The notes below the pieces were generated by a model. It was given only the letters and a program-made list of their open reading frames with translations, ran no database searches and was not told the DNA's origin. A DNA stretch of 20,509 nt from NCBI GenBank assembly GCA_008632985.1, contig QPGO01000114.1, positions 248,001 to 268,509 of the forward strand, written 5' to 3'. The position numbers and the translations under genes were made by a program. Below, piece by piece: positions 1-20,509 of the stretch; positions within the stretch are counted from its first letter, which is position 1, and every line of letters starts with the position of its first letter. Source of the stretch: Psammoneis japonica (Eukaryota).

Positions 1-3000
1 ACAAACTCCTCTGCTGGTTTGAACAAGGACTGGTCAGTGTGGTGGGGAAATGGATCACAGCCAAACAACTTGAGCACTGAAAGTTGCACTCAATTGACAA
101 CATTGTGACATGGCATGCCAAAGTCATGGCAATCACCACATCACATCCCAGCATTTGTGCTGCATTGACGTGTGTGACAAGGAGAAGCAAGAAGTGCCCC
201 ACCTCTGCACCAAACTTGATTGCAAAACATTGGGTGCACATTCTGGCTGTCCGACAGCTCAGATGCTGGAATCTTCCCCGCACACCTCACATTTGCAATT
301 TGGGCCTTCAAAACACTGCAAAGCCACAAATGCAGACATGGATCCAATGCCGCACACTCCTTTAAGTCCTCACAGATTTTCATGATTCTCCAGTCTGCAT
401 TCTGGCCAAACTTGTCAATGCATGCCTCAAGAAGTCAAGCACAGAGTTTTTGCATGCTGCAGCCCTCCAGATGATTGGAGCCCAGTTGTTTTGCTAACTC
501 CATTGTTTCAATTGCTCTTGGCGGTGCACTGATTTCCAAGAGCATGGCATCCACCAACATCAAATGAGACATTCATGGCAGCAGGAATGCCTTTTGGAAG
601 CTGGCGGCATGTCAGCTGCATCAAAAAGACCTGTTTCTGTCAAGTCAAGAACCACGACTTTATCGCAGAGCTGGGGTGGAAAGCATGTCTGAACCACCCG
701 CGTTGTCAATCAAATGCATTGGCTGACAATGCCACCCATGGGACTCAAGAGTGCCACACTTGCCACAGTGGATGCATTTGTGCTCATTCAGAGCCAACCT
801 TGTGGATTTCCCATTGTGCCCAAATGGGTCAAAATGAAAAACCCATGCAGCCCCCTTTGCCCAATTAAAAGGGTCAAGAGTCAGAAGTGACACAGCTGAA
901 ATGTTGGGCGGATGCCACTGCTGCTTGCTGTTCTCACATGCACCTGCATTGCTGGAGCTCATGACTGCATTCTTGACTCCTTCCAAGCAATTCAACAGCA
1001 GTGAGCCAGGCTGGGGTTTGCACTGAGACAACTCACACTCTTCTTTTTTGTTGCTTTGCTGATGTCATGTTCAGTGTCTTCATCACAGTCTTCATCATTG
1101 TCGCTAAAACGCGCCTCGTCATCGTCGTCACCTTCCTCCTGTCCTTGTGCCAACCCAGTTCTGGCAATGTCTGCAGCTGCAGCGAGCCTCTCCAGTGCCT
1201 GAATTTGCTTTTCCTCATCTCTCTTCTGTTTGTTGAGACACTCTTGTGCCAGAGCCTCTTGTCTTTCCCTTGCTCTGTCTGCTGGCAGCTCTGCTTCTGC
1301 TGCTTTCTGCTGCTTGGCTTGTTGCTTGCACCAAGCTTCTGCAACTGTCAACACCAGCTGAGCACTCTGCTTTTGAGCCAATTCTTTGTTTTGATCATGC
1401 TTGGCTCCAAAAACAGCTCCTTGTCCTTTGGCGTGCGAGACTGGTCTGCCAGACCCCTTTCCATTGCTGCCACTGCTGGCTCCGCCTGTGGCAATGGTGC
1501 TTCACAATGTGAGTGTGAGAGCAATGGAAAGCATTTGTGAACATCTGGGTTGCTGCAGTGTGATGACTCCTCTTGCTTTGCTTGAGTCAAGTCAATCAAA
1601 AAGCTCTGCCCACGCCAGGTGAAAAAATGCCTTTTGCACCACATGGATCTGTGCGGAGTGTTCCTGATCTTTCATTGTGCTCATTTGTTGGATGAAAAAG
1701 GTTGTTGGTGTGCAACGACCAACTCAGGTCAACACGTTGCCTTTCATTGACATCAACAAGCACCGGCACACAAACCCTGTTTCACCTCTGGAAAAGTCAA
1801 AGCATTTGGGATGTCACAATGGAAAGTGTCTCAAGCCAAGCTCTGGGTGCACACTGAGGGTGCCATCTCCAACAGCTGCTTCTTTGCAAAGATGACAATG
1901 CCCATCATTGCAAACAAAGTTCAACCTCAAATGATGCCAGTGGAGAGGTGCCTTGTGCACCACTGCACTGGCTTGTCAAAGAACCAAATGACATTGCCAA
2001 CAAAATGTTGCGCTGCACCTGTTGGCTCAAAGTTGTGCTGCTCTCAACTCCCAAACCGGGGTCGACAATGGGACACTTGGAAAATCTTAAAATTCATCTT
2101 TGCCCAACAACTTTGCTTCCTTGCATTCTTTCACATTCACGATGTGATGTCTGGCTGCTGTCGCAACTTCAACCTGCATCTTCACTCACTTTCACCCTGT
2201 GTTGTCTCACATGCCCCTTCCTTTTTTCCACTGTCCACCATCCACTGCCCCCCTCATCTTTCCCTCCTCCACACATCTGACAGACCACACCCTCTCAATT
2301 GGTCAGGGAAACTGACGACACAAACCAGCTGCTTGGAGCACCTTGAATCATCAGCCAGCAGACACACGCACAGACGTGCAGACAGGCAGAGCCCATGATC
2401 TTCAAAACTCATGTGTGTTGAGCACATCCACACATCAGTCCCAGCAGCTCTGCTTTTCCACAGCATGTCAAGCCCAGCCGGTGTTTTTTCATCCTCAACT
2501 CCCAGGGTGCTCATCAAAGGAATGCAAGAGTGGCTCAAATTGAAGCAGGGCATTGACCCACAAAACATTCTTGCCCAAACTTCCTTCAGCAAAAGTTGTG
2601 GCAAAGCTGTGAGCACTGGCCTGGGGGCAAAAATGAGAGCCATTGAGAAGGCGGGTGTTGCCATTGTTGTTGCTGGGGAGGGCCAATTTGCTGCGTTTTG
2701 CTGCTGCCATCAACACATCATCTTGAGACAGCATCCAACTGAAAGCTGTCCAGCCTTGAAATGCACTGCAGTGCTTTTTTTAAGGTGCTCTTGCAGCAGC
2801 TTGCTGCTGCGCAGCAGCAGCAGAGCCACCATGCAAAAGCAGGCAAGGATCAAGACTCTTTTGTCTCTTTTTGTCTTTCTTTGGTTGCTCACAAGGCAGC
2901 CACAAACCATGCAGGTGCGCACCATTTTTTGTGTTGGTGTGATGTGTTGATTGTCAATGAGCTCAGTCTTTTGGTGTTTGGCGTGGCACTGCCATCTCAC

Positions 3001-3723
3001 ACTGTTCTTCTGGGGACTGCTCATTCACCCAAAAAAGCTCTTTTTGTTGATGCAACAAGGCTGGTGCAATTTTTGGCAGCTCGTCAATCCAGTGGCTCTG
3101 GGATGTGCCCACACTTGCTTTTGGAGCCATTGTTGCAATGGGCGGCAAGCAGCAAAGGCAAGATCAAACATGGCAAAGTGAGCTGCCACAATTGCCCACA
3201 GATCGCCACACTTTGTTGCTCTCAGTTTGCTGCTGCACAGAGGTTGTTGGCTGTTTTCTGGTCATTGAAACATCTCTCTCTTGCTCTCTTTGTTCTGCTC
3301 TTTTTTTCTCCCTCCTTGCTCTCCCAGCATCAATTTTCCAAGCTGCTGGATGCATTTGGGGGTGTTGCTGCTGTGCAAACCAACCACCTGTGTTGGGCTT
3401 CTTTTGCAATCTTCCTTGTGGCTTGTGGCAACATTGTCAGCTGGTCAGGGTGTGCCTTTGTGTCGTGGAACATGACAAAGACTTTTTTTGCTGGTGGGTG
3501 CTGAGCTGCAGCAGGCAACGACAGCTGCAGTGTGCAACTGTCACACGCACATCTGCGATCACACATCACTCATTTGTGGGTCAATTGCACCACAGTCGTG
3601 GATGCGCGTGAAGGACAGAACGATCATGCAGAGTTGATCGGAAGTCGAAAACTGCAAAAAAGACATTGGCCCTTGGTGTCCATGTGAACAAAATGACATC
3701 AGAGAGAATGCTCGATGCAGTGC

Positions 3724-3725
<2 letters not shown>

Positions 3726-3795
<70 letters not shown>
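3726..3795. repeat. (CA)35 microsatellite
   Basis: Uninterrupted CA run, 70 bp. Confidence 0.98.
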
Positions 3796-3797
<2 letters not shown>

Positions 3798-4218
3798 CAG
3801 AGCGAGAGACAAACAACGACAATCTCGAAAGACATTTGGAAATTGAAATGGCCCCATGCTGGCCCACATGAAACAACAACAGTCATTGCCCAATGGCACA
3901 ATGCAGTTAAAACGCGGAGACATCATTGACGCTGTCAATGTCCGTCGAGTGATTCCGTGGCTCCATGTCAGCCGCCACCGCCAGAAAAAGTTCTGCTCTC
4001 ACATGCATGTGGACCAATGCTTGCACTCTCTTTGCAAACTGGAAAGATGGACAAAGCCTGAATGGCACTGAGAAGAGTTGCGCATGTCATCAGTGCCTCC
4101 CAGATGTCTCTGGCACACAGGACAGGCACAACTTGAGAGAAAGCCAGGCCACCGGAGTGAGCAAGAAAAGTGTGCAGCAGCTGCTGCTCTCTGCTCTGTC
4201 TCTAGAGCAGCGCCACTG

Positions 4219-4244
4219 CTCTCTGCTCTCTAGAGAGCAGAGAG
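4219..4244. repeat. 26-bp perfect palindrome
   Basis: CTCTCTGCTCTC-TA-GAGAGCAGAGAG; a related half-copy lies at ~4187-4210. Confidence 0.9.
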
Positions 4245-4431
4245 AGTGTGTGCACATTCGTTCCATTCATCTCAAGGGGGGGTCATTTGCTGCTTTTTTT
4301 AGCTCGAATTCGACCGAGTGGCTCGTGATTTGCACGATTTTTCTTGAATTTCACCGTGCTTCACCGTGGTGAAAACATCAAGCCACAAGTTAGTGACGGA
4401 GGTGCTGGTCCGTCTGCCAACTCTCATTCAT

Positions 4432-5046
4432 TCATGTTTTTTGTGCACCGCAGGTCACACGTGCATCAAATGTTTGTGGATGGACCACTGTGTTTTGGAG
4501 CCATGCCGACATTGCTGTCATCGTGCTTTGATCGTGGCATGCATGTGTCAGAACTGGTTTCACACCTGGAAGGAGGTGGAAAATCACTTTCCAGAAGACT
4601 TTGGGGTCTTTGTCGAGATCGCGGGTGTCAGCGACGAATGGCCAGCATGGGTTGAATGGCAAAACATCCGATCGACAATTTCATCCCCGCAGTTCATTCG
4701 TCAAGTTGTTGAAAAGGTTCATGCCTTAAAGTTGCACAGGGCCAGGAATGCACGGATGCTGCCCGTCTGGGGTGTTGATCTTCAAGTCGCGAAGGTCCAG
4801 GTTTTGGACAGATGCGTGAACATCTCTTTGGGCAAGAAGATGCATTTTTCATTTTTGAAAAACGGAGAGCTTCATTTGTGTCGCCCAAAATTCTTGTGCA
4901 GACATCACCCTGACATGAAGTTGCAACATGCAGACGGTCTTCGTTGTTGCCACCATAGGGCCCTCTCTAGAGCATACGATGGAGAACCCCTCTGGCCATG
5001 ATCTCGAAGTCGCCCCACCTACATTAGATAACCCCGATAAACACAA
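4432..5046 (-). pseudogene. Degenerate ORF of unknown (probably TE) protein
   Basis: ORFs 4849-5046 and 4432-4662 lie in one minus frame that reads as protein throughout (FWATQMKLSVFQK*KMHLLAQRDVHASVQNLDLRDLKINTPDG...VLPFNPCWPFVADTRDLDKDPKVFWKVIFHLLPGV), broken by two TGA and one TAA. Confidence 0.5.
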
Positions 5047-5439
5047 ATTTTCTAGGAATCAATAGGAATAGAATTAACGATTTAGACAACTCGTTGTACA
5101 CCTACGGTTTTTTACTGCCACGGAGCTTGTTACATGGCTGTTTTGATAAGCAAAACCTGTCAGAAGTAGGACAATGCTGCTGTGCTTCGTAATCTCTGCC
5201 ATCCGCAGTCATCCGGGAAACTGAAAACTCTCATACGAGAGACTTCTTTCCGGCCATTGCAAGTCATGGTCAAGCTTCGTTCAAGCTTCAAGCAACAAGT
5301 ACCAGAACAGCTAGAAGTAGCTAGTCATAAACCTGTGCTACTGTATGTACTCGATAATCTTCATCCCCGCAGGGTAGAATACCAAGGCTCTAATCACGTT
5401 ACACCACCGGCAACTTATTCAACTCAATAAGCGTGGCAT

Positions 5440-6734: not shown

Positions 6735-7152
6735 ACGCGCGTAGATCGTCCACGAAAGCTCTGTCACGATGTGCTGTACCTGAGAGAATTTTTGTGGGGC
6801 GAAAAACGATTCGCTCGCCAAAAACACACACAACAACACGATACATCAACAGCACTTCAGACAGCTCTCTTCGGAAAGCAGAGCAGTAACACCTCGACCC
6901 AATACTTCCTTTTTCATTTACATTGTCTTCTTCATTTATGATGGTAAGTAAAGTTCAGTAGCACTGTGGGTAATGGAGAAAATGTACAATTTAGACTTAC
7001 AGCCTCAGTGTTTTTTCCTTTGCGTTTGCCGTCAGGTGTTTCGGCATTGGCGTCTCTCCGGATGCAATTTCCCCGGTAATTATGCGTTCTCAGCATCAGA
7101 CATGTCCTACATGACAACATATCAAAAGGGTCCGGCAGTATCATAACTGTGA

Positions 7153-8316
7153 GTTGATCGCTCCGAATAGGTTTGGTTGCATGTCTAATTTTGGTGATAC
7201 AAAACGGTACGCAATTTTCACGAGCTTGTATTTTTCCTGTTTTTACAGTTTGTGGTTGGGATAGATATCAAAGCAATACTCTCATCTAATCTATTATCTG
7301 TTTATTGTGCCATTACCACAGGAAGTATCTGTTAGTTGATCGCATCTGAATTGGGTTGGCTGCAAGTATTGTTTTGGCGAAGCAAGATAATGGTACGCAG
7401 TTTTTATGCGCTCGTATTAGCTGCTACATGGTTCACGGCTTGGATTGCTACATATCGAACATATACTCTCACGGACTCTATTGTCTATATCTTGTGCCAA
7501 TGTCACAGGAGATATAAATCAATTCGTATCCAATCTGAATTGATTTGCTTGCATCTATTTTTTGGAGAATCAAAACGGTACGCATTTCTTATGAACACGT
7601 ATTCTCCGCATTGTGCAGTTTATGGTTTGGATAGCTACATATCGAATAAACACTCTCATGGACTCTTTTGTCTATTTCTTGTGCCAATGCCACAGGAATT
7701 GTCAATGGACTTAGTTGACGCTTCACGGGCTGTCGTGCATGCATGCGTGATAAAGCACATCGGGGTCCACAGTTTTGTACAGTCATTACGGATGAGCTGG
7801 GTATGAACAGAAAGGCAAGATTCAACTGTGCACCATTGTCTATTACTCTCCTTCATCTATTGTTTTGGTGGTTCAAAGCGGTACGCATTCCTTATGAGCT
7901 AGTATGTTCCGCTTTGTAAGTTTGGTTTCTATGACTGCATATCAAAGCAATGCTCTCATGGACTGTGTTGTCTGTTTCTTGTACCATTACCACAGGAACT
8001 ATCTGTTTCTCGTAACATCACCACAGGAACTGTCTGTCAGTTTATCAAATCCGAATTGATTTGGATGCATCTATTGTTTGGGAGATTTAAGACGGTACAA
8101 TTTATCATACACCCACGTTCTCCGCTTTGTGCAGTTTATGGCTTGGACAGCAACATGTCGAAGAAATATTCTCACGAACTCCATTGTCTACTGCTTGTGC
8201 CTTGGCCATGGGAATGTCAAAAATCCTTTTAGCTTGATGGGCTGTTGTGCGTGCATGCGTGGTGTTGCGTCGGTGTCCGCAGCTTTGTATCAACATTATG
8301 GATGAGCTAGGTATGG
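7153..8316. repeat. Five diverged ~185-bp tandem units plus a twice-repeated ~80-bp spacer
   Basis: Anchor (C/T)GGTAC(G/A) at 7205, 7391, 7576, 7879 and 8093; shared ..TCTCAYGGACT..TTGTCT..TGTGCC...CACAGGA; spacer GGGCTGT...GGATGAGCT.GGTATG at ~7727-7805 and ~8240-8316. Confidence 0.88.
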
Positions 8317-8369
8317 CAATGTGTTGATAGCCAGATCTTGAAGCAATGTTACCAATAAGGAATGCAGTC

Positions 8370-8842
8370 AAATCTATGAACTGTCGGTCCCTTCCATTGT
8401 CTGATGTAGTACAAGGATCAGCTTAGATCCTATCTAGATCTCCCCTTTCGATGGGCGGAACTCGGAACAGTCTACCGGTAGGTTCAGTTCTCATGTTGTG
8501 CTTTCGTGTTGAATGTTCTACTTCTCTGGAATTAACGCTTACCTCGCAAACTCTGGCTGTTCTGTGTGCAAGAAGCAAGAGGTCGGGTGCCTTGCATGTG
8601 CTGATGCGCGTCCGTGGTTTTACACAAGACGAGCTAGAGTACAAGACAAGATTGTTCAAGAACTAGACTTGACCGTAACGATTCTTTCTTGCTTTGGTTT
8701 TGATGAGTATGACATTGTGCTTTCAATGTGACCAGAACAGCAACGCATTCCAATCACGGCTGTCGTAGGTGTGAAAATAGTGGAGTCCGGCAAGCTCACG
8801 GTTCGTAGCCGTAAAGAAGGCGACCTTGCTTTATTCAGCATC
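8370..8842 (+). pseudogene. thrS: Threonyl-tRNA synthetase (bacterial/organellar type) fragment, frameshifted and internally deleted
   Basis: K.MNC..FHCLM.YKDQLRSYLDLPFRWAELGTVYR; intron-like GTAGG...AG at ~8478-8572; RSGALHVLMRVRGFTQDE; LDLTVTILSCFGFDEYDIVLSM*PE joined directly to anticodon-domain QRIPITAVVGVKIVESGKLTVRSRKEGDL. Confidence 0.9.
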
Positions 8843-9803
8843 TATGCTTGTGATTACCTTTAGCAATGGCTTGATAGTCAGAATCCCAGAAGTAACCCAG
8901 TTTTGAGTAATGGCATTGTTGGGTTTCCCTTTTCTCAAACGCAAAACAATAGGCCGGGCACATAGATGCGGCAGAGTCGTCAAGCTTTCTTATTTTATTG
9001 CAACAGAGTCTATTCTACTAGAAATCTGTTTCTTCTAGGCTCTCAAGGCTAGAAGTAGAAGTGGGAATGGAGATCACAGTTTCATTGAAATGCTCCTAGT
9101 GCCACGTAAAGGATCCAACTCGATATGAGCTCCGTCCTTGGTAGCAGAACGTATGGACTTATAATTCCATTCCTCTCCATCAACTTCAGGTGAAAATGGA
9201 GCCTTGTAATAACCATTTCACCTTTTCCTTTGAAGCCCTGTCCAACCAAGTGAATAAATGATGCTCTCAAAGCAATGGTCGATCCCTTTTTCCAGCATGG
9301 AACTCTGTAATAAGCCAACAGCGGATGCGCAGTCTTGGTGGCGATTCAGCACTGAGCAATCTCTTTGCAATGGCATTCGGAATCACTCCAATGCCATTGG
9401 CACAGATCACATGCCAGCAACTGTGACCTTGGCATGTTGTATTGAGTATATGATGTCAGCACAAGTGATTGTGTTGTCGGTTGTGGCAGAATATGAACGC
9501 AAACTTGTCGGTTGTTGTGCGTTGCGTCGCGGTGAATTTGTAATTATTTCGGGTTTCGCCCCACAAAAATTCTCTCAGGTACAGCACATCGTGACAGGCG
9601 GAAGTACCAGCGTGATCCACCTCATCGTTTTGTCGTTCGCGCGCGCGCTGAGTGTGCGAATGCGCGTGTGCGAACGACAACAGACGATTTATGCACCTCT
9701 GCCCAGCGCAGCATGCACACCGCCGCAGCAATGATCTTGCTGCGCTGTTGCCGCTGTGCTATTGAAGCAAGAAATCCCGTTATTCTTAATCATAGCACTC
9801 ATC

Positions 9804-10331
9804 ATGTCTACTTATATGCTTCATCACAGTGCCAATGAACGCCGCAAAGTCATGCTGGAAAAGCTCGGTGGTCGCAAAGTCTTACACGAGGCGATTGACA
9901 AGTTTTACGACAAGCAAATCCACGATGAAACCTTGATGAAGTACTTTGAAGGCGTCGACGTTCAAATTATTAAATGGCATCAATTCAATCTCATGTCGAT
10001 TGCCTTTACAGAAATTCCAGAAAACTTTGACGTAATGCAATTATTGCTTACGAGGCACAAGCGTCTGTTTGATCTCGGATTGTGTGAACGGCATTTTGAT
10101 TTAGTAGCTGAGCACTTTTCAGATACTTTGCACGAAATGAATGTAGACGAAAAGCTCCAAAAGGAAGCTTTGGAGGTTGTAATGCCACTTCGTGATGTTT
10201 TTGAGCAGGGTGCAAAGGAAGCTCAGGAGCGGAAAAAGGAAGAAGCGTTTCGGCGACAAGTCATTCTGGCGGTTCTGGTGGGCGTGGTGGCTGTGGGTGT
10301 TGTACGGTTTGTTCGATCCAAGAAACATTAG
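9804..10331 (+). CDS. Group I truncated (2/2) hemoglobin with C-terminal transmembrane tail anchor, 175 aa
   Basis: Intact ORF from ATG 9804 to TAG. LEKLGG...AIDKFY (B9-B10 FY), L.KYF.GVD, HQ (E helix), RH.RL (proximal His), GL.ERHFD.VAEH. Then a charged linker, hydrophobic VILAVLVGVVAVGVV and basic RFVRSKKH. Confidence 0.9.
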   Translation: MSTYMLHHSANERRKVMLEKLGGRKVLHEAIDKFYDKQIHDETLMKYFEGVDVQIIKWHQFNLMSIAFTEIPENFDVMQLLLTRHKRLFDLGLCERHFDLVAEHFSDTLHEMNVDEKLQKEALEVVMPLRDVFEQGAKEAQERKKEEAFRRQVILAVLVGVVAVGVVRFVRSKKH

Positions 10332-10708
10332 AATAGAATACCGTCGTCGAGTGATCATGAGGCAGAGAATCTCTGATCAATTTGAAATTTTTGGCGAGTT
10401 CGAGATTGTGGAACGCTCCAGAAAGAATAGATAGGAAACTAATCTAAAGGTAGGAGAGACTTGTTTGAAGCTGATAAATCAACAGGTTTCTCTCAGCTCG
10501 TATCCATGCCAAATACACTCTACACTAGGTGGTCTAATGGGGTATGTTAGTGATAGTACCATAAAAGTGTTCTTCTGTATGTGTTGGAAGGTCAAACATA
10601 GGTATAGGCGGAGATTGAAGGTGGGAAAGGTTGAACCATAAGTCCAAGGACTTTCTCTCTAGAGGAATACAAATAATACCTCTTATTCCAACCGGAGACT
10701 GCAATAAA

Positions 10709-11390
10709 GGCAAACCGGAAGCTCCAAATGATTGTCCGAACACAAACAGACTCGTGATCAACGAGACCATGCTTAACCCGTCAAAGGTCAAGCATGGCAA
10801 AGTAGAATGGTTTAAACGGATGAACTATCAAGGAAGATGAGGTTAATAGTCACGTCATTGAAAACGGCTAGCCTCTCCATATCACCCTTGGCGGACTCCT
10901 TGTGCTCGGAAATAACGGCAACGTCATTGACAGCGACAGTGCCGCTTCATACTGTGACTAGTGCAATCGTTTGCAGCTGAATAACGGTGGTGACGAGCTC
11001 GTTCTCGTAGACAGACAAGATGTCGAGGTTGATCGTGTAGCTTGGCATGTGGGGTCTGATGATTTTCCATACCAGAATGATGCAACCAAGGCAGTCCGAG
11101 ATGCGACTCTTGACAACAGCATTGGTACAAACTGGTACAGCGAAGGAACACCTGGAACGAAATTATGTGTGTCCGAATCCTAACATAAGCGAAGATGGAC
11201 CGGTCTCTTTGAGGACAGTGATCATGTGCAATCGTGCTCAAGTTTCAGACACGTTGGGTGAATGGGTGGGGCTCTTCAATCCGGCGCGTCGTGGGCTTTA
11301 CGCATTGACGGAAAGAGCTGGTGTGTGGAGCCACTCCGTATGGTGGTGGTGATTTAGGCGCTCCGGGAGCCAAGAATGACTGCCCTCCCG
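10709..11390 (+). pseudogene. Tandem lamin-tail-domain (LTD) protein remnant
   Basis: GKPEAPNDC; LVINETMLNPSKV..GKVEWF..MN; SHVIENG*PLHITLGGLLVLGNN; LNNGGDELVLVD...VDRVAW; EGTPG; second copy IMCN.AQVSDTLGEWVGLFNP...PYGGGDLGAPGAKNDC. Stops and frameshifts present. Confidence 0.75.
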
Positions 11391-11529
11391 GTCGCTGAAT
11401 GGAACAGGAGAAAAGAGGTAACATCAGAGGCTCTAGGTGATAGCGTCGCTTGTGCTGTAGTAGCAGGAATAAAGGTAAGCACGTGTTAATAAAGATCTTC
11501 AACTCCCATCCTTACCTAAATGATATTGT

Positions 11530-13110
11530 CTAGGATTGGAGGAGCCAACTATCAATCAACTTTCGTGCCAGTACCCCATGTGGTGGAATCAACAACGGCA
11601 ACGTTGGATCATTTTCCATTGCTTTCTTTGCCACTTCGTGTAACATAACCGCTCCAGGACCGATCGATGCCTTGACCACATCGTCAAAATCAAACCAAGC
11701 AAATTCTACCAATTCTTCCTCGTCCATGTTAGTCTCTTGATTCTCATCCACCGTGGCGTGAAAATCAATCATGCAGGAACGGGGAAAAGGCCACGGTTGA
11801 GATCCGATGTACGACACAGAGTCCGTATCAATGCACACGCCGGTTTCCTCAAACACTTCACGACGAATCGCTTGTTCAAACGTTTCTCCGGCTTCGACAA
11901 AACCAGCCAGAGCCGTGTGCATTTTGGGTGGATGGCGTGGTGTCTCGCTAGTAGGGCACGATTCTTGAGTCGATTGGTGACTAGAACAATAATGCTGGGA
12001 TCCTGACGAGGCCAACTCATGACACCGCAGCCCGTACACCTTTGGCATGATCCGCCTTGAAATGTGATGAGCGATGAACCACAACTGGAACAGCGCTTGT
12101 GTGTCTTTTTCCATTGTGACAAGGCGGTTGCATACAACGCAAGCTCGTTGTGTTTCTCGTTCAGGAGCGGTGCTTGTGTTCAAGAGTACGCAAAGCTTCC
12201 TGCTACGTCAAACGATGAATCATCTTGATCATCATCCAGGTCAATACTAAAGACTGCGGAGCCATCGGAAGCGAGTCCAAGAAATGTCTTTTCGCTATTG
12301 TCTGGTACACTTGAAGACCAACAAGAGCTAATTCAGTAGGCGATGCAAACAAGCATTCTCGACCACGGACAATAACATGCTTGGAATCTGCTTGCTCCTC
12401 GAGGTTTTGGATAGCTTCTTCATCTCGTCGAAGATGCGTTGCCCGATCCAGACGCGTACATGACGCAATCATTTCATTGCTTTCACCCACAGCATCACGT
12501 AGAATTCCACTTGCATCGAACGCCAAATTGGCAGCAGCGTCCGGTTACAATCGCATGTTCCCCTGACGATTTGCATGGGTCGGGTGCACCACCGTCTGCG
12601 CCAAACAACCGGACTGACGAGTCGTCGTCTCGCCCAGCAATGGCAATAGCCGCAAAACCCTTGTTGTGTCCTTTGGGTCTAAAGGTGGGACTGGCGGCAC
12701 TTCCTTCGGCAATGGCATAATCGACATTCATTTGTTTACAAAGCGCAAGCCCCGCTTCTGCAGTCCAGTGGAGTTTTGATCGGATGTACCCGTCCGCTTC
12801 AGTTTCATCAGGCATGGCATCGTTCTTGAAACTGACGAGTTTCGAATGAAGAACTTTATCACTTTTTAGAGCAGCGGCAAGGCCTTCCGGGTGTTGTAAG
12901 CGACAGAGCCTCCATAAAATACAGCGGAAGAACATGATGGAGGAAGAAAGGACTCCACCCGCGGAACATTCCACAGTAGTCACGGTCTTTTTCAACTTCT
13001 TGAGACCATTGACCAGTCTCGTGAACGATGGTGAGCGGAAGCTGTGATTGATCACCTTGAGACGACGCAGTATGGAGAAGCAAATGATTTCTAAAAGCCT
13101 GCATTGACAT
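11530..13110 (-). pseudogene. nudC: CinA/PncC-like (NMN deamidase fold) plus NudC-type NADH pyrophosphatase fusion, multiply frameshifted
   Basis: 5' part: VTTVECSAGG, SSAVFYGGSVAYNTRKA, DYAIAEGSAASPTF.P.G..KGFAAIAIAG (CinA C-terminal fold). Then LDRATHLRRDE, zinc ribbon CSSCG...CTGCG..WPRQDPSIIVLV, Nudix box AGFVEAGETFEQAIRREVFEETGV and NudC signature SQPWPFP. Motifs are spread over several frames. Confidence 0.85.
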
Positions 13111-13282
13111 ACAACACTACAACTAATTCGCGACGATGACTAGAGTAGAAGTAGCTACCGGTAGCAGTGCTGTAGAGAGTTTGGGCCGTTGTTGTCGTTT
13201 GTCGTTGCACTCATCGAAACGAACGCGGCAGGTGTCATTCACCTGAAGAGAGAAGGAAGCATGGGAGTTAGTTGTGCGTGGA

Positions 13283-13698
13283 GCACCCCTGTGGTAGGGG
13301 AGAATATGGTGATGTCATGGTTACGTGGCAGTTTATATCTTATTCATTATATTTTTATATAAATGTCCTCACATTTATTTATGCATTTGTACACAAATGC
13401 CAATAGTAACAGGAAAAATCCTGAACACTCCACGCACACCCCTGTGGTAGGGGAGCTGTGTGTGTGTGCGTGGTTGTGCGCGCACGGCTTCGCCGTGCGT
13501 TGAGTTTCAATCTTAATATCCACACGAATGTGTATATTCCATAAGTAAAAATTTATTCAGGATTTTTCCTGTTACTATTGGCATTTGTGTACAAATGCAT
13601 AAATAAATGTGAGGACATTTATATAAAAATATAATGAATAAGATATAAACTGCCACGTAACCATGACATCACCATATTCTCCCCTACCACAGGGGTGC
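13283..13698. mobile_element. Foldback/MITE-like element: 143-bp perfect inverted arms around a 130-bp spacer
   Basis: 13283-13425 is the reverse complement of 13556-13698. The spacer holds a direct copy of the terminal CACCCCTGTGGTAGGGGAG (13437-13455), a short TG run and the hairpin GCACGGC-TTC-GCCGTGC. No TSD. Confidence 0.75.
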
Positions 13699-13972
13699 CC
13701 GGGTTCCTTTGGGCGTGCAGAGAAAAGACCCGAGCGAGTGACAGACCATTTTCATCTAAGAAGCGACCTCGCTCAGCGCGGTTCCGTCCGGCCTTCGTAC
13801 GGGACCTTTCGAAAACCACTTGCACAAAACATCACAAAAATCGCACACCATGACGAGTGCCGCCGACGCGTCGTCGTGTAGCGCTATAACTGTTATGATA
13901 ACAACTACCAAACCTTGCACACACGATCTAACAGTATTCAAGTACATGTTCATGTTTTAGATTTGCTGAAAT

Positions 13973-15184
13973 ATGTCGGTTTCATCGATTGCGCCGCGGT
14001 TGAATAGCGACACTCATGGAAGCACACAAAATGCGGCTCCGGAGTATAACATGACCCAGGAGAGGCAAATTATGCTTGTTGATCCCAAAATCAACCTTTC
14101 AATCGTTCGAGTACTTGGTTTGAAATACAATGGATGCGAGATACCACGTCACATTCTCGGTTATGATGCTAATTGGCAAAACGTTTTTCGGAAGGTCCGA
14201 GATTTCGTCAAAATGGATGCCGCTGAGCAGAAGATCGAGAAGAACCGCTGGGGCAAGTTCCCACGATGGGAAAAAGACATATATGAACGAAGGATTCGCG
14301 TATTGAATGAGCAAAAGGCTGCTATTCATGAAAAGTATGCGCAAGTAACCATCGGAACTGCAAAATTACCGCGATCAGTTTCACCCGTGCCAGAACCGGT
14401 CGCGCAACAAGCATCAGTCGCTACAGACAATGATACCGCCGGAGAACAACAGGTAGAGCCACCTAGCAGTGTATCTGACAAAAGACTGACATCAGCCGGT
14501 TTGTCAGAATCGTCAAAGGTTTTTTTTAGAGGCAAGAGCAGAAAGCGTCGAAGCAGAACTCCAGCGTCGGAGTCTGTGGAACAAACAAGCGCCCCCGCCA
14601 ACGACGGTAGATCGAGTTTCAATCTGAAAGCTACATCACTTTTTTCCCCAGTAGAAGAACGTCTGGCTTTGGTAGAAGATGCAGAAAAGGTAAAAAAATC
14701 TCGAAACACTTTGCATCTGATGGGAACGAATGCAGCTTCTCTCAGCCAACAGGCGGACAGAACTGCGATTGATTCGATTCACGCACTGTTGAAGAAAGCG
14801 GGAACTGCTGCTGATACGACACACTATCCAAATCGGCTTGATAATGAACCGTGTGTGCGTGTTGTGTGCTTGGTTTTGAACGGGATTGAACCTTCCGAGA
14901 CGGATGGCGGGCAACGAAATACAATCGACCTTCCTGCCAAAAAGCCGGAGTTGCTGTTGGTCACGCATTCAGGGGACGATATAAAGCCTGTAATGCAAGC
15001 GTTCAAGGCTGTCACTAGGAGTGAAACAAGAAGCAATGATGCTTTTCACTTTTACCCATTAGTTGCTGGCAAGGATGGTTTGGTTTCATCTGCCGTTGAG
15101 AAATACATTGATGCTTTCAAGAAGAGTCGTAGGAAACCATCCAAAAAGCCTCGAGCGTACCCTGAAGTCATCGAAGAATTATGA
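13973..15184 (+). CDS. Element-encoded hypothetical protein, 403 aa
   Basis: Intact ORF with normal amino-acid composition. Helical N-terminal region, S/P/A/E-rich linker with basic NLS-like KSRKRRSR, globular-looking C-terminus. No family recognised. Confidence 0.8.
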   Translation: MSVSSIAPRLNSDTHGSTQNAAPEYNMTQERQIMLVDPKINLSIVRVLGLKYNGCEIPRHILGYDANWQNVFRKVRDFVKMDAAEQKIEKNRWGKFPRWEKDIYERRIRVLNEQKAAIHEKYAQVTIGTAKLPRSVSPVPEPVAQQASVATDNDTAGEQQVEPPSSVSDKRLTSAGLSESSKVFFRGKSRKRRSRTPASESVEQTSAPANDGRSSFNLKATSLFSPVEERLALVEDAEKVKKSRNTLHLMGTNAASLSQQADRTAIDSIHALLKKAGTAADTTHYPNRLDNEPCVRVVCLVLNGIEPSETDGGQRNTIDLPAKKPELLLVTHSGDDIKPVMQAFKAVTRSETRSNDAFHFYPLVAGKDGLVSSAVEKYIDAFKKSRRKPSKKPRAYPEVIEEL

Positions 15185-15260
15185 GCAGTTGTTGGATGGA
15201 CAGCATGTAGTATTTCAATATCTAAAGTACACTACTAGAATGAATCAATATACTACTACT

Positions 15261-15995
15261 TTAGAAAAATTGATAGCCAGGGGATTGGGATTGAGTAAAT
15301 CCCGTCATGTAGGCAAGGTTTGTCAAAGTTGAGCGATTCGATATCTCCAGCGGATCAAATTTTTTTGTCGGGCAAAGGGTGACGAGGATGGAGTGAAACA
15401 CCTTGAAGATTTTCTCAATCGATGCTTTCATTTCGCTCGTCCAATCTTCCTGCGAGTAAGTGGGAAGAACAGTTGATACAACAGTAATATCGCCATCCTC
15501 TTTGTATTCAGCAAATGTCAATGAGGCGTAATCTTGAATCCTTGATGACGTAACATGGACGTTGCCTCCGAAGAGTTGGTCCGGTGTTTCCTTGTTGCTC
15601 ATGAAATGACGAACCGGATCCATCTTGGCATTCGGAGGAGTGATTGTACCAGTACAGGATTGTTGAATAGGTTTCATACCACCATGTCCTTGCTCAAAAT
15701 GAACAGAATGCATAGTAAAGTCAGTCGTTTCACTGCTGCATACCGAGCAGTACAACGTCGCGTCACAACCTCTCAACGCGACGGAGCGGGCGTAGCAAGA
15801 GACACAAAGAGCACATTTTCCAGCACAACCCAGCTCAATAAAGCTTTCCATACATGTATAGATCTGATTCTCACAAGCTGTACATGACTTAATGGTCGAA
15901 TGAAGCGTATCGAGCTCACAATCGACTGTGACCCTGTTTGACGGAGAAGATTTACCATACACTTTCCGACGCCTTTTTTTTAATGGTTGTGACAT
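15261..15995 (-). CDS. Element-encoded protein with NLS and RING-like Cys8 zinc finger, 244 aa (possibly C-terminally truncated)
   Basis: PLKKRRRK, then CTAC-x15-C-x3-C-x2-C-x2-C-x14-CSVC. Confidence 0.75.
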   Translation of the reverse strand: MSQPLKKRRRKVYGKSSPSNRVTVDCELDTLHSTIKSCTACENQIYTCMESFIELGCAGKCALCVSCYARSVALRGCDATLYCSVCSSETTDFTMHSVHFEQGHGGMKPIQQSCTGTITPPNAKMDPVRHFMSNKETPDQLFGGNVHVTSSRIQDYASLTFAEYKEDGDITVVSTVLPTYSQEDWTSEMKASIEKIFKVFHSILVTLCPTKKFDPLEISNRSTLTNLAYMTGFTQSQSPGYQFF

Positions 15996-16500
15996 TTTGT
16001 GACAATACTGAAGCTACCCCAGTGATCCGAGATGAAAGAGTAACCGAGTCTATTAGTGGTATTGGATAATACTAAACGGTTGTTGAGCTACACGACGACG
16101 CGTCGGCGGCACTCGTCATGGTGTGCGATTTTTGTGATGTTTGTGCAAGTGGTTTTCGAAAGGTCCCGTACGAAGGCCGGACGGAACCGCGCTGAGCGAG
16201 GTCGCTTCTTAGATGAATTTTCAAAAACAGTTTTTGGTTTTTGATCGCCATACATCCGGGTTTTTATCGAATATTTGCCACGTGGAAGCAATTGAGACTA
16301 GGCGAAGAGAGATTAGACTATGAGTCTCTATCTCAACGCACCGTGGAACGAAGGCCAGACCTGCATGACATCACGATTGCGTCAATAACCCGGAAAATTC
16401 CTTTCAACCTGCACAGGGTTTTCGATTGTAGGGAATTCCTCATTCGACCCTGAATTTCCTTAGACAAGGAAAGACAAGGAAACCAGACAGGGAAAAATTA

Positions 16501-18342
16501 ATTGTCGTGATTTGCTGCGCAGTCACAACTGACACAATCATTTCATCAAGCGGTCGACTTGCCCAGAGCCTGCAGCTGCCAACACACTTCAACACACCAC
16601 ATTCAACGAGAAAGGCAGATGCCCTTGGGCACCACAGTCTTTGGGACAAAGAGGCAGCATGATGCTCCCATGTTCTCTTCCAGCATGTTTTCTCCAGTCG
16701 AGCCCACAACAAGCTCAAGTTGGGAGAAGAGTCATTCAACAGACGCACTTTTCAATGAGAAGCTTGTCAAGCTTTCTCTGTGGCTGCCTGCATTGTCCAT
16801 CATTGACGATGGCTGTCAGGACCAGCTGTGCTCCGTGCGACAATGGCGCTCGGCTTTCAGGCTTCTTGTTGCTGACAGTCACGCACCAAAAGCATGCGCA
16901 GCACCGCCACTGATGTCACACTCTGTGTGAGATTCCATGTCAGATCTTGGCACAAAGATTTTTGTTTGTCTTCTTTCTTGTCTTGGGCTGGCCACTTCCT
17001 TGCGATCAAAAACCCCAAACCTGCAACACAAGAAGACACAAAAGTGCAAGAAGACAACCAACCATGATGCAGTGCTGATGGGCCGTGCCTCACCCCCTCA
17101 TGAATGGTGCAACAGATGCTTGCATTGAGCTGCACAAGAGTGTGTCTTGCAAATGACTGTGACATCAGAAGGGCAACAACCAAAGTGAAGTGGTCGCAAA
17201 ATCTTCTGGCAAGTCGCTCCAATTGCCAGCGCCGTTGTTGCACCACAGTTGCTGTCAAACTGTTTCTCGTGCTGTTTGTTGCATTGTTTGTTGCCATCTT
17301 GTGGGAATCAATTGTGGATGGAAATTGAGTCAGGGCCTTGAAATGGCCCTTGCTGCTTGGCTGTTGTTCTTGACAGTCTGGCCAGCAGTCGCCCCACATC
17401 ACAAATTGTTGCGGCAGGGCCCAGCACATCTGTTGCTTGCCTTCATTGCAGCCGTCAATGACCACACAAGAAAAAAGCATGGAATGAACCCAGGTCAGAA
17501 CAGCATGGATTTGAACATTGAATGACCAGGGCAAGCCGCCAGCAAACAAGTTGTGGCCCATCTCGATCTGTTCAGGTCATCCCAGCACTGCAATCTCATC
17601 CATGACTTTCAGCACACTCCACATTTTGTCTGACTCCAGTGCAAACACATCCATTTTGATCACATCAAAACATGATTCAAAAGATGACCCAAACCAAAAT
17701 CTTCCAAGATGTCTGTCAAACACAGAACACAGGCACTCCCTTTGCAAGAGTGTCTGCTCCCGACTTTTGGAGGTTCTCAAATTGCATGAATCATGTGGGC
17801 TTGGACTGTCTTGTCCTCCAACAACAGGCTTTCTGTTGTGACTGAGCTTGGTGTCTCTGAATCTTCTTCCTGGAGTGTGGTCCCTTGCTGCAGACATCCT
17901 CAAGAAAATGCTCAGCATCTGGGGGATCGACTGGTGTGGCCACAACAACTGTGAATGAGTGGGGAGAGACTGCCACCCTTGCAAGGGATCACAGTGTGTC
18001 CAAACTTTTGTGAAGGACAAGGGATGGTGATGGCACCTCGTGCAGCGACAAAGAGTGTGAGACTCGCTTTTGTGGGACAAATGATGGCAACAACAAGAAG
18101 GAAGAGAAATTCCATCCAGTCTTTTTGAGACCAACACTTGCGGGATGATTCTCAAGGGAAACTGGCTTTGCAACAAGCAACATGTCATGTCATGAGGTTT
18201 CGTGCCGGGGGTGGTTTTGATGCCTGACCAGAGAAAGCGCGTGCTGTGGAAACGCCAAGAGCCCAAAAGTTGAAACAGTTTGCAACATGACTCAATCGAC
18301 AGAAGGGCAAGAGTGAACCACAAAGCTGTGGTGGGAGCATTT
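16501..18342. mobile_element. TpA-free decayed repeat or TE relic with a minus-strand ORF remnant (~17250-17800)
   Basis: I found no TA dinucleotide between 16501 and 18342. ORFs 17577-18323 and 16857-17561 share a frame and are separated by one TGA (..KVMDEIAVLG*PEQIEMGHNLFAGGLPWS..). Confidence 0.55.
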
Positions 18343-18600
18343 TACAGCATGATGTCAAGAGCCCGCAAGTCCGCTCAGTTGACAGAGTGGCAAGAACAAA
18401 CTACAAAGCCGTGGCGGGAGCACACCATGGCAACACAAAAAGCCCGAAAATCGAAACAGTTCACAATGCGGCTCAATCGATGGAGCACAGAGTGCAAGAG
18501 CGAAGCATGGTGGGAGCATGTTCTGGTGCCGCCAAGATCCCAAAATCGAGATAGTTCGCAACGTGGCTCATTCGATAGAGCAGCAGGAGCGAACTACAAA
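18254..18600. repeat. Four diverged ~90-bp tandem units
   Basis: Recurring ..CAAGAGCCC.AAA.TYGA.AYAGTT..CAA..GCTCA.TCGA..GCAAGAG.GAA..ACAAAG..GTGGYGGGAGCA. Confidence 0.85.
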
Positions 18601-18771
18601 TGACTTGTCAGTGTCTTTCTTCTTCTTACTAACAAGTTGAACGCACCATGGAGTCTTCGCCAGGTCATTCTCGACCAACACGTTTGGATTTTTTTTGCAA
18701 CAGTACAGTAGGATTATATGTTAAACTTTCTCTAATCTTTTGATCCGTTTCCGTCTTTTCGAGCTTCTTCA

Positions 18772-19191: not shown

Positions 19192-19995
19192 TAGCTGTAA
19201 ACTACACTATCACTGAACGATACTTACAGGCCCCATATAAACCATGCCACATTTGATTGTTGTGAAATTGTACAGAAACTACAAGGTAATTCACGATGTT
19301 GTCGAAAACGGAAAGCACGAGAAAGACACGACGGTGAGCAATAAGTCGAGTTATATGCATGAGATAACAATCAACACGACTCAACAAACAAACCATATAA
19401 AACATAACATCAGTTTTTGCATTGAGTCATGCTTCTTCATTTCTATCGGTACAAAATCAAAACCATGAAGTAGGCTCTCGTGTAAGTACGAAGTGCGTCT
19501 TGCGTCTTGAGTCGAGCAAAACAGTCCTTACGGTGGCGTTTCTTATTTCGATAGGGTCCACAGCTTGCAAGCGATGTGATAGAAATTATGCCAAAATTCA
19601 GATGCTCGTTCCTGCAAATGTAACAGGCTAAAGAGCTAAGTGTTTGGAAGTTTGAGATAGCGAGAGAAATAGAGACATAACACGCAAAAACGGATTGCAG
19701 CGGCTCACCTTCAATCCATCATCCATCATAAGTCATCCCCTCCCACACTTCATCTTAAAACTCCCACTGCTGTCTCAACACAAACAAACAGCGCGAACAA
19801 AACGCGCAGTTTTTGAAAAGCAGCGACGCCATTTCAAAAACTCTTTTCAAAAACTCTCGCTTTTTTCACCACGACGAAGTGCGGAGAGTCTCGAGGCTCT
19901 TCGCCTCTTGTTATTTCGAGTCTCGCTACGGCACGCGACACGCGACACCGATCTATCGATCAAGTCCCGGCTTGGGAGGTCTGTGATTGGTACGG

Positions 19996-20142
19996 TCTCA
20001 CTTTGGTCTCAGCCATTTCTCAGTTTGTCTCAGTTTCTTCTCAGGTTTTTCTCAGCTGTCTCAGCACTCTCTCAGGGGAATCTTGGCATTGTCTCAGCAG
20101 CTGTCTCAGCCAAAAAATTGCTCTGTCTCAGCGTTGTCTCAG
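19996..20142 (+). repeat. Phased array of TCTCAG hexamers (~11-bp period)
   Basis: Exact TCTCAG at 20007, 20018, 20028, 20039, 20050, 20059, 20070, 20092, 20104, 20126 and 20137; variant TCTCAC at 19996. Confidence 0.9.
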
Positions 20143-20361
20143 AAAATCTGAAAATTAAAATTCCATGAGTGCACCAATTTTGATGCTGGAAGAGAATCCT
20201 GCAATGTCTCAGTTGACGAAAACTGCCGACTGAGACAGGTGACCGAAAATCTTGCAGAAATCCATAAAACAGGATTCCATTTTTTTTTCTTGTATGTGGC
20301 CACGAGCGTTTTGGAGTTTCGTGATCACTTCTCACTTCTTCTCTGCTCTGCTCTCTAAACC

Positions 20362-20509
20362 ATGAGTGCAAACAACCAAAACGCCGTCCCCGCCGATGTG
20401 GTCGTCCCTGGCCCTCCTGACGCTGTGGTCGTCCCTGGCCCTCCTGATGCTGCCCAGCGCGAAGAGTCCGCCAGCATTGCCGGCTTCAGCGCTGCCTTTT
20501 TCGATGCGT
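20362..20509 (+). CDS. 5' end of a putative ORF running off the window (MSANNQNAVPADVVVPGPPDAVVVPGPPDAA...)
   Basis: ATG in AAACCATG context; frame open to the window end; in-frame 27-bp tandem duplication (VVVPGPPDA x2). Confidence 0.45.
   Translation, partial: MSANNQNAVPADVVVPGPPDAVVVPGPPDAAQREESASIAGFSAAFFDA

What the first reader, a model, noticed from the sequence alone, without database searches (positions are those of the whole stretch)
16501..18342. 1.84 kb with zero TpA: candidate repeat-targeted 'reverse-RIP' hypermutation system
Seen: no TA dinucleotide in 1842 bp, where roughly 1 position in 16 would be TA by chance, whereas flanking DNA has TA every few tens of bases. CpG is also low, TG/CA is in excess, and the ORF-track peptides contain no Tyr. 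Known: 5mC deamination explains CG->TG/CA, and fungal RIP creates TA rather than removing it, so neither explains TA loss. Inference: a domain-restricted process converts TpA to TpG/CpA (A->G at a symmetric site) in silenced repeats. Candidates are adenine modification/deamination at TpA, or error-prone repair of T:G mismatches by a pol eta-like enzyme (known A->G preference at WA/TA). I know of no described genome-defence system with this signature.
Basis: partly seen in the sequence, partly recalled or inferred. Interest (0 to 1): 0.92.

Follow-up and report, generated by a model that had tools for sequence, protein, structure and literature searches.

The report
TA-free hypermutated DNA blocks, probable diatom
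Several stretches of this probable diatom genome have had nearly every TA (and most CG) turned into TG or CA, the footprint of a TA-targeted DNA hypermutation process that was first shown experimentally in 2026 in an unrelated alga.

Summary
Positions 16501-18342 hold 0 TA where 86.5 are expected at the flank rate (P about 3e-39). CpG o/e is 0.35 and TG/CA o/e is 1.7-1.8. It is not unique: 1-5000 and 19991-20509 carry the same signature.

The lost TA+CG nearly equal the gained TG+CA (146 vs 126; 383 vs 362). Degenerate tandem repeats across the right border show TA->CA/TG and CG->TG/CA directly.

Its novelty claim is out of date. A 2026 bioRxiv preprint showed exactly this TpA->TpG/CpA hypermutation in mutation-accumulation lines of Bigelowiella natans, and found 124 TpA-depleted, CpA+TpG-enriched clusters there.

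New points here:
- The flanking genes point to a diatom, not a chlorarachniophyte.
- Depletion is saturated.
- CpG decay accompanies it but has a smaller footprint.
- Surviving TAs are mostly TTAA.
- Adjacent young, apparently multi-copy repeats are untouched, so 'repeat-targeted' is not supported.

The enzyme is unknown; an adenine deaminase acting on DNA is inferred, not shown. No protein or viral homology was found in the blocks.

The parts
16500..18342 (.). Block C: saturated TA-free, CpG-poor, TG/CA-rich domain with a sharp left border
   Evidence: 0 TA, CG o/e 0.35, TG 1.80, CA 1.73. Deficit TA+CG 146 against excess TG+CA 126. No Pfam family at or above its cut-off.
18343..18600 (.). Graded right border of block C: TA still depleted, CpG nearly recovered
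   Evidence: 5 TA (o/e 0.39), CG o/e 0.88, TG 1.45, CA 1.46.
18254..18625 (+). Four degenerate ~95-bp tandem units (U1-U4) straddling the border; they serve as an internal polarisation series
   Evidence: Alignment A1. The outermost unit U4 has GATAG, GATAGAG and CTACA where inner units have CA or TG at the same columns. CG in U4/U2 corresponds to TG or CA in U1/U3. Self-BLAST gives 65.5% identity for 18428-18600 against 18247-18407.
1..3600 (.). Block A core: saturated TA-poor, CpG-poor domain; runs off the left end of the window
   Evidence: 7 TA (o/e 0.03), CG 0.22, TG 1.83, CA 1.86. Not similar to block C by BLASTN. No Pfam family at or above its cut-off.
3601..5000 (.). Block A transition zone: TA depleted, CpG only partly depleted
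   Evidence: 9 TA (o/e 0.10), CG 0.64, TG 1.63, CA 1.73. Includes a (CA)35 microsatellite at 3726-3795.
19991..20509 (.). Block E: start of a third TA-poor domain; runs off the right end of the window
   Evidence: 5 TA (o/e 0.15), CG 0.71, TG 1.33, CA 1.26. Opens with about 10-bp-spaced TCTCAG repeats.
16860..18341 (-). Possible relic reading frame: 494 codons with one in-frame TGA. Uncertain.
   Evidence: A span this long with at most one stop occurred in 1 of 1,500 TA-free Markov simulations. There is no codon-position periodicity (p=0.28, against 4e-9 for the globin exon). 0 hits at E<=0.001 among 1.84 billion representatives. No Pfam hit. No relative in viral contigs.
8603..9424 (.). Otherwise normal segment where the window's copy looks lightly hit relative to a related contig of run X1
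   Evidence: 15 differences are listed against one 822-nt contig of depth 178.5 (the contig has 16). In 6 the window has TG/CA where the contig has TA, and in 1 it has TG where the contig has CG (my re-reading of adjacent double changes).

Best explanation
These blocks are chromosomal domains of a probable diatom. A DNA-level, TpA-specific transition process (A->G on either strand, giving TpG or CpA) has run to saturation in them, on top of slower CpG->TpG/CpA decay of the kind expected in 5mC-methylated silent DNA. It is the same kind of process as the TpA hypermutation measured in Bigelowiella natans. Shown here: the signature, its domain restriction, its strand symmetry, the direction of change at the border repeats, and a context effect (TTAA spared). 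Inferred: the agent is an adenine deaminase acting on DNA (an ADAT2/TadA-type enzyme is the leading candidate); targeting follows a chromatin or 'foreign DNA' mark rather than sequence repetition; and the process is still active at these loci.
For: Signature: 0 TA in 1,842 bp and 16 TA in 5,000 bp, with TG and CA o/e 1.7-1.9. Mass balance against flank o/e: block C loses 146 TA+CG and gains 126 TG+CA; block A loses 383 and gains 362. Symmetry: TG 196 vs CA 210 in C and 541 vs 577 in A, with no strand clustering beyond that of normal DNA (runs test z -2.36 vs -2.67). Direction: in the border repeats, all three TA sites of the outer unit are CA or TG in inner units, and one site shows both TG and CA derivatives. 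Related contigs: of the 40 listed X1 differences, 10 have the window at TG/CA where the contig has TA or CG, 3 are the reverse, and one adjacent pair is TG against CA. Precedent: in B. natans MA lines, 230 of 231 mutations in the two hypermutable regions were A->G or T->C; the paper states that all of these fall on TpA, and it reports 124 TpA-depleted/CpA+TpG-enriched clusters. Rates: from the preprint's 6e-7 per site and 3.3% TpA I estimate a TA half-life of about 38,000 generations. That would explain complete TA loss alongside incomplete CpG loss. Still active (inference): 6 of 12 surviving TAs are TTAA, against 2.8% of TAs in normal DNA (p=3.7e-7) and 7.0% expected if TAs were regenerated at random from TG/CA (p=7.7e-5). 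The survivors therefore look like refractory sites, not new mutations. Lineage: the flanking globin and NUDIX genes have diatoms as their best named relatives (Synedropsis 67%, Attheya, Cylindrotheca, Bacillariaceae sp.), with no near-identical hit. CpG part: passages of PMC9998398 describe 5mC on diatom TEs and its loss with DNMT5a.
Against: No intact relative of either block was found, so most of the blocks cannot be polarised site by site. The repeat units are short and only about 65% alike. No de novo mutation was observed here. No TE or viral homology was found in the blocks, so a 'foreign DNA' origin is unproven. The only runs holding the stretch come from one sample that may be the assembly's own source, and only contigs were available, with 314 difference rows not shown. 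The genome is not held, so neither a genome-wide pattern nor a candidate deaminase could be examined. Diatom origin rests on two flanking genes at 64-75% best identity. The 11 environmental diatom-like contigs show no such block, though they are short and gene-centred.
Confidence: 0.72

Rival explanations
1. RNA-level editing: an ADAR-like enzyme hyper-edited double-stranded RNA of a retroelement (A->I with a 5' U preference), and the edited copies were reverse-transcribed and integrated.
For: A->G on both strands with a 5' T matches the ADAR neighbour preference mentioned in the preprint's discussion.
Against: No reverse transcriptase, integrase or any other Pfam domain was found in the blocks. 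Depletion is essentially 100% at TA, while AA is not depleted (o/e 1.22-1.24). The right borders are graded in place across local tandem repeats and into DNA with normal CpG, which fits in-situ action rather than pre-integration editing. In B. natans the mutations arise in resident chromosomal DNA during clonal growth. ADARs are regarded as metazoan enzymes (recalled, not tested).
Confidence: 0.07
2. Error-prone repair: pol-eta-type synthesis during repair of T:G mismatches from 5mC deamination introduces A->G at WA motifs.
For: CpG decay and TA loss co-occur in the block cores.
Against: WA includes AA, yet AA is enriched rather than depleted in the blocks (1.22-1.24 vs 1.11). TA depletion extends into zones where CpG is little depleted (3601-5000: TA 0.10, CG 0.64; 18343-18600: TA 0.39, CG 0.88). 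In B. natans the 231 regional mutations included only one that was not A->G/T->C, so no accompanying C->T burst is reported.
Confidence: 0.07
3. Artefact: modified bases (for example 5mC at CpG and a modified A at TpA) in silent chromatin were systematically miscalled during sequencing or polishing, so the TAs exist in the cell.
For: Platform and library of the runs are not on record, and the only holders come from one sample that may be the assembly's source.
Against: Contigs of run X1 cover all 30 bins of the stretch. If they carried TA/CG at the missing sites, about 529 G>A or C>T places would be expected in blocks A and C. The whole 20 kb shows only 94 such places, outnumbered by 165 A>G/T>C. 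Near-quantitative mass balance, graded borders and TTAA sparing are the behaviour of a mutational process. The same signature is backed by Illumina MA data in B. natans.
Confidence: 0.05
4. Native composition: the blocks are foreign or specialised DNA that always avoided TA and CG (for example from a donor with that signature, or under selection), not mutated in place.
For: No ancestor sequence is available for most of the blocks. A TA-poor stretch maintained by selection has been noted in a phage elsewhere in this scan (unrelated genome, unchecked).
Against: The border repeats show TA- and CG-bearing units grading into TG/CA-bearing units of the same family. Some related contigs hold TA or CG where the window has TG/CA. 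Deficit equals excess. Three unrelated blocks (no BLASTN similarity) share the same signature within 20 kb.
Confidence: 0.05

Closest known systems
TpA-targeted hypermutation of integrated viral DNA in Bigelowiella natans (Mettrop et al., bioRxiv 10.64898/2026.01.13.699255, 2026)
   Same: Exclusive TpA->TpG/CpA outcome on both strands. Restriction to discrete domains. [quoted passage not shown] Targets often unannotatable. Not dependent on copy number.
   Different: The host here is most likely a diatom (Stramenopiles), not a chlorarachniophyte (Rhizaria). Depletion here is saturated (0-0.05), whereas the active B. natans NCLDV region is at Rho 0.45. CpG is co-depleted here, and the preprint's main text never mentions CpG. 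TTAA sparing is seen here, and the preprint's main text discusses no extended context. Viral origin is not shown here. Its supplements (mutation and cluster tables) could not be read and may bear on context and CpG.
Repeat-induced point mutation (RIP) of fungi
   Same: Domain-restricted, transition-only, saturating mutagenesis of unwanted DNA that spreads somewhat into flanks.
   Different: RIP is C->T (CpA->TpA in Neurospora), so it creates TpA and AT-rich DNA. Here TpA is destroyed and GC rises slightly (0.49-0.51 vs 0.46). RIP is triggered by duplication, but here apparently multi-copy young repeats are untouched. Diatom DNMT4 is related to fungal RID but its function is unknown (passages).
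CpG decay by 5-methylcytosine deamination in methylated repeats
   Same: Explains the CpG o/e of 0.22-0.35 and part of the TG/CA excess. Diatom TEs carry 5mC.
   Different: It cannot remove TpA. The TA footprint is larger and more complete than the CpG footprint.
tRNA adenosine deaminases ADAT2/3 and TadA, and TadA-derived adenine base editors
   Same: They deaminate an A that follows U/T (wobble A34 after U33; recalled). The preprint cites DNA editing by amphioxus and trypanosome ADAT2 and names a B. natans ADAT2 homologue as its candidate.
   Different: No enzyme was identified or tested here, and no genome is held to search. ADAT2/3 are universal in eukaryotes, so their presence does not discriminate.
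ADAR hyper-editing and APOBEC editing of retroelements in animals
   Same: Deaminase-based hypermutation of selfish elements that leaves clustered transitions.
   Different: ADAR acts on dsRNA, and APOBEC gives C->T/G->A in TC/CC contexts. Neither yields complete, TA-only loss in resident DNA with graded in-situ borders.

Membership tests
B. natans-type TpA hypermutation domains | [quoted passage not shown] | tested here: met
   1-5000: TA o/e 0.05, TG 1.77, CA 1.82. 16501-18342: TA 0, TG 1.80, CA 1.73. Block C itself is only 1.84 kb, or about 2.1 kb with its border. Criterion taken.
B. natans-type TpA hypermutation domains | Changes are TpA->TpG and TpA->CpA only (A->G on either strand) | tested here: met
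   Mass balance, TG roughly equal to CA, and border-repeat polarisation. This is indirect: no de novo events were seen, and CpG->TpG/CpA also contributes to the TG/CA gain.
B. natans-type TpA hypermutation domains | Mutation rate about 1000-fold above the genome baseline, measured in mutation-accumulation lines | not testable with these tools
   Only contigs from one sample were available.
B. natans-type TpA hypermutation domains | Target is integrated viral (NCLDV or virophage) or other foreign DNA | tested here: inconclusive
   No Pfam family at or above its cut-off in 60 block ORFs. 0 HMMER hits for the 494-residue frame. No relative in viral contigs.
B. natans-type TpA hypermutation domains | Host is the chlorarachniophyte B. 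natans | tested here: not met
   The best relatives of the two flanking genes are diatoms at 64-75% identity or less, with no near-identical protein in the collection. This is a feature of the single described case, not of the mechanism.
Fungal RIP | C->T transitions that create TpA and lower GC | tested here: not met
   TpA is absent and GC is 0.49-0.51 against 0.46 in the flanks.
Fungal RIP | Triggered by sequence duplication | tested here: not met
   The palindrome 13283-13698 (arms 100% complementary; X1 summed depth 1565 against a baseline of about 60) has TA o/e 1.03. The TIR element 13751-16217 (summed depth 300-457) has TA 0.60 and CG 1.14. Summed depth is not a copy number, so 'multi-copy' is only probable.
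5mC-driven CpG decay | CpG depleted with matching TpG/CpA gain | tested here: met
   CG o/e 0.22-0.35 in the cores. It accounts for roughly half of the TG/CA gain. The methylation itself was not measured.
ADAR editing of retroelements | Retroelement substrate (RT or LTR) and a looser neighbour preference (A->G also at AA and CA) | tested here: not met
   No RT or integrase domains. AA is not depleted.

The most novel reading that the evidence does not exclude
A TpA-specific DNA adenine-editing defence is not a peculiarity of one chlorarachniophyte. It also operates in diatoms, and so is possibly ancient within the SAR supergroup. It runs to saturation, is still active on these loci, acts independently of cytosine methylation (its footprint is larger than the CpG footprint), ignores copy number, and has an extended specificity that spares TTAA. 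That specificity could be used to identify the enzyme.
Probability: 0.45. Interest if true: 0.85.

Novelty: new member of a known kind. Interest (0 to 1): 0.7.

Why it matters
Until 2026 no cellular system was known that erases TpA from chosen DNA. The only report is a preprint on one rhizarian alga, and the enzyme is unknown. A saturated example in a probable diatom would place the process in one of the most abundant and genetically tractable groups of phytoplankton. It would suggest a wide distribution and give concrete handles for finding the enzyme: TTAA sparing, separability from CpG decay, and indifference to copy number. It also matters for annotation. TA-free DNA has no TAA or TAG stops, so it throws up long spurious ORFs (for example 254 and 239 codons here) and Tyr-free, Cys/His/Trp/Gln-rich 'proteins' that gene callers may report.

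Tried and rejected
- **Whole genome:** not held, so no genome-wide Rho scan or deaminase search was possible.
- **Pfam:** across 14 + 60 + 41 ORFs, only NUDIX, CinA and a truncated globin were found, all in the normal DNA, and nothing in the blocks.
- **Read-through frame:** an exhaustive HMMER search of the 494-residue frame gave 0 hits.
- **Viral contigs:** a scan with the 254-aa ORF found no relative.
- **Protein atlas:** the 404-aa ORF of the TIR element gave no usable hit.
- **Rfam:** 0 matches over the window.
- **Self-BLAST:** blocks A and C are unrelated to each other, so they cannot polarise one another.
- **Strand clustering of TG vs CA:** no different from normal DNA.
- **Environmental contigs:** 11 loci around globin homologues carry no TA-free block. 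I use them only as a null for gap length, not as evidence of absence in those organisms.
- **Sequencing runs:** no RNA holder is listed. Run X2, whose contigs carry GT..AG joints and so look like cDNA, has no cover on 510-4511 or 16518-18518.
- **Earlier scan notes:** nothing for this genome, and only unrelated phage and bacterial items by words.
- **Literature:** searches for the signature in diatoms or other organisms returned only the B. natans preprint. The library lacks most subscription journals.

Full report
**1. Observation**

The window has 637 TA dinucleotides. The longest gap between two of them runs from 16499 to 18343 (1,844 bp); the next longest gaps (1,127, 983 and 693 bp) all lie in 1-4000. 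Region 16501-18342 has 0 TA, CG o/e 0.35, TG 1.80 and CA 1.73. The normal DNA at 5001-16499 has TA 0.64, CG 0.98, TG 1.19 and CA 1.24. At the flank rate 86.5 TAs are expected, giving P(0) of about 3e-39. All six frames lack Tyr and have only TGA stops, which follows automatically from having no TA.

As a null, 11 environmental contigs carrying homologues of the flanking globin gene (about 49 kb, partly redundant) have a largest TA gap of 169 bp.

The finding's block is one of three in the window:
- 1-3600: TA o/e 0.03, CG 0.22
- 3601-5000: TA o/e 0.10, CG 0.64
- 19991-20509: TA o/e 0.15, CG 0.71

**2. What happened to the sequence**

I compared each block with what its own base composition and the flank's o/e values would give. 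Block C lacks 76 TA and 70 CG (146 in all) and has 126 extra TG+CA. Block A lacks 383 and has 362 extra. TG and CA are nearly equal (196 vs 210; 541 vs 577), so both strands were hit equally. TG and CA products are not clustered by strand more than in normal DNA.

Four degenerate ~95-bp tandem units straddle the right border of block C (18254-18625). The three TA sites of the outermost unit (GATAG, GATAGAG, CTACA) appear as CA or TG in the inner units. One of these sites shows both a TG and a CA derivative, as expected from a TA ancestor. CG sites of the outer units likewise appear as TG or CA further in. The units are short and only about 65% alike, so this is a small sample, but it gives the direction of change.

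Contigs of one public run (X1) add limited support. Among the 40 listed differences (314 more were not shown), the window has TG/CA where a related contig has TA or CG at 10 places. The reverse holds at 3, and one adjacent pair is TG against CA (I corrected one search's automatic classes for the adjacent double changes at 801/802 and 8704/8705). Over all 346 places in X1, 259 are transitions.

**3. Two footprints**

TA depletion is more complete and reaches further than CpG depletion. In 3601-5000, TA o/e is 0.10 while CG is 0.64. In 18343-18600, TA is 0.39 while CG is 0.88. The left border of block C is sharp: the last TA is at 16499.

The two processes are therefore separable. CpG decay is what one expects of methylated silent DNA. 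Passages of PMC9998398 describe 5mC on diatom transposable elements, its loss in a DNMT5a knock-out, and a RID-related DNMT4 of unknown function. I did not measure methylation.

**4. Context**

Twelve TAs survive in the cores (1-4000, 16501-18342, 20001-20509). Six are TTAA, three CTAA, and one each TTAT, ATAA and GTAT. TTAA makes up 2.8% of TAs in the normal DNA (binomial p=3.7e-7). It would make up 7.0% of TAs regenerated at random from the blocks' TG/CA sites (p=7.7e-5). So the survivors look like refractory sites rather than new mutations. By inference, newly arising TAs are still being erased.

**5. Not repeat-triggered**

A 416-bp palindrome (13283-13698) has 143-nt arms that are 100% complementary. 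A 2.5-kb element bounded by 94-100% identical inverted repeats lies at 13751-16217. In run X1 their summed depths are 1565 and 300-457, against about 60 where single long perfect contigs lie. Summed depth is not a copy number, so 'multi-copy' is only probable. Both elements keep normal TA (1.03 and 0.60) and normal CG, although the second ends 282 bp from block C. Blocks A and C are not similar to each other.

**6. What the blocks were**

This remains unknown. No Pfam family reaches its cut-off in 60 ORFs of 70 or more codons, and Rfam finds nothing.

The minus strand of block C has a 494-codon frame with one TGA. Such a span occurred in 1 of 1,500 TA-free Markov simulations. However, the frame has no codon-position periodicity (p=0.28), no relative among 1.84 billion representatives, and none in viral contigs. 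I treat a coding relic as possible, not shown. Long ORFs are otherwise expected here, because only TGA can stop translation in TA-free DNA.

**7. Organism**

No genome is held. The flanking truncated-globin ORF has its best hits at 75% identity (unnamed metagenome proteins). Its named relatives are Synedropsis (67%), Attheya, Cylindrotheca and the diatom-bearing dinoflagellate Kryptoperidinium. The NUDIX ORF's best hit is 64%, with Bacillariaceae sp., Aureococcus and Thalassiosira among the named relatives.

No near-identical protein appears, although the collection includes MMETSP and EukProt entries. I therefore read the organism as a diatom whose proteome is not in the collection, and not as B. 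natans. This is an inference from two genes.

**8. Comparison with what is known**

A full-text search found bioRxiv 10.64898/2026.01.13.699255. I read its abstract, the whole Results and the whole Discussion, and ran term searches on it. Its supplements are closed.

In 15 mutation-accumulation lines of B. natans, 231 of 302 nuclear point mutations fell in an integrated giant-virus region and a virophage region. Of these, 230 were A->G or T->C, and the paper states that all of them lie on TpA. The rate was about 6e-7 per site per generation. Eleven of the 15 lines showed the hypermutation. The main target is single-copy. The genome holds 124 clusters of TpA-depleted, CpA+TpG-enriched 1-kb windows. 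The authors propose an ADAT2-like adenine deaminase. The main text never mentions CpG and never mentions extended sequence context.

From their figures I estimate a TA half-life of about 38,000 generations, and about 280,000 generations to clear a block like C (an inference). That is far faster than CpG decay, which fits the complete TA loss and partial CpG loss seen here.

Searches aimed at diatoms or other organisms found no other report, within a library that lacks most subscription journals.

**9. Rivals**

- **Pol-eta-type repair at WA motifs:** it should also deplete AA, but AA is enriched. It should also track CpG decay, which the TA footprint does not.
- **ADAR-type RNA editing followed by reverse transcription:** it lacks a retroelement substrate here and does not explain the graded in-situ borders.
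- **Miscalling artefact:** it would require about 529 G>A or C>T differences in the read-derived contigs, and only 94 such places exist across the whole 20 kb. The run may not be independent of the assembly, however.
- **Native TA-free composition:** it is contradicted by the border repeats and by the mass balance.

**10. Verdict**

I file it as a new member of a known kind: the B. natans-type TpA hypermutation signature, saturated, in a probable diatom. It has three added features: CpG co-decay with a smaller footprint, TTAA sparing, and indifference to nearby young repeats. The enzyme and the targeting signal remain inferred.

Noticed in passing
window 13283-13698: Perfect palindrome with 143-nt arms that are 100% complementary around a 130-nt spacer. 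Very high summed depth in run X1 (1565 against about 60), and normal TA content. Looks like a young foldback or MITE-like element.
   Followed up: partly
window 13751-16217: 2.5-kb element bounded by inverted repeats of about 145 nt (78 nt at 100% plus 68 nt at 94%). It holds ORFs of 404 aa (+) and 250 aa (-) with no Pfam or atlas match. Possibly an undescribed DNA transposon, apparently multi-copy and not hypermutated.
   Followed up: partly
window 7144-8315: Degenerate tandem array with a period of about 187 bp. Contigs of run X2 skip 115-118 nt with GT..AG ends at 7205-7321, 7391-7508 and 7576-7695. This looks like a gene built of repeated ~70-nt exons, each followed by a ~117-nt intron. 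No Pfam match.
   Followed up: no
window 19995-20150: About a dozen copies of TCTCAG at roughly 10-bp spacing, at the start of the third TA-poor block. They resemble the subterminal repeats of some DNA transposons or a cluster of binding sites.
   Followed up: no
window 9181-9847: Segment with intermediate signature (TA o/e 0.47, TG 1.57, CA 1.53, CG 0.98) and high summed depth in X1 (1133). Possibly a repeat caught part-way through TpA hypermutation, without CpG decay.
   Followed up: no
window 6761-6809 and 9549-9597: 49-nt inverted repeats, 96% complementary and 2.7 kb apart, bracketing the repeated-exon gene region.
   Followed up: no
window 11530-13136 (minus strand): NUDIX (NAD+ diphosphatase-like) and CinA-like ORFs lie adjacent on the same strand. 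They may be exons of one NAD-salvage gene or two neighbouring genes.
   Followed up: no
window 3726-3795: Perfect (CA)35 microsatellite inside TA-free block A. X1 summed depth there exceeds 3000.
   Followed up: no
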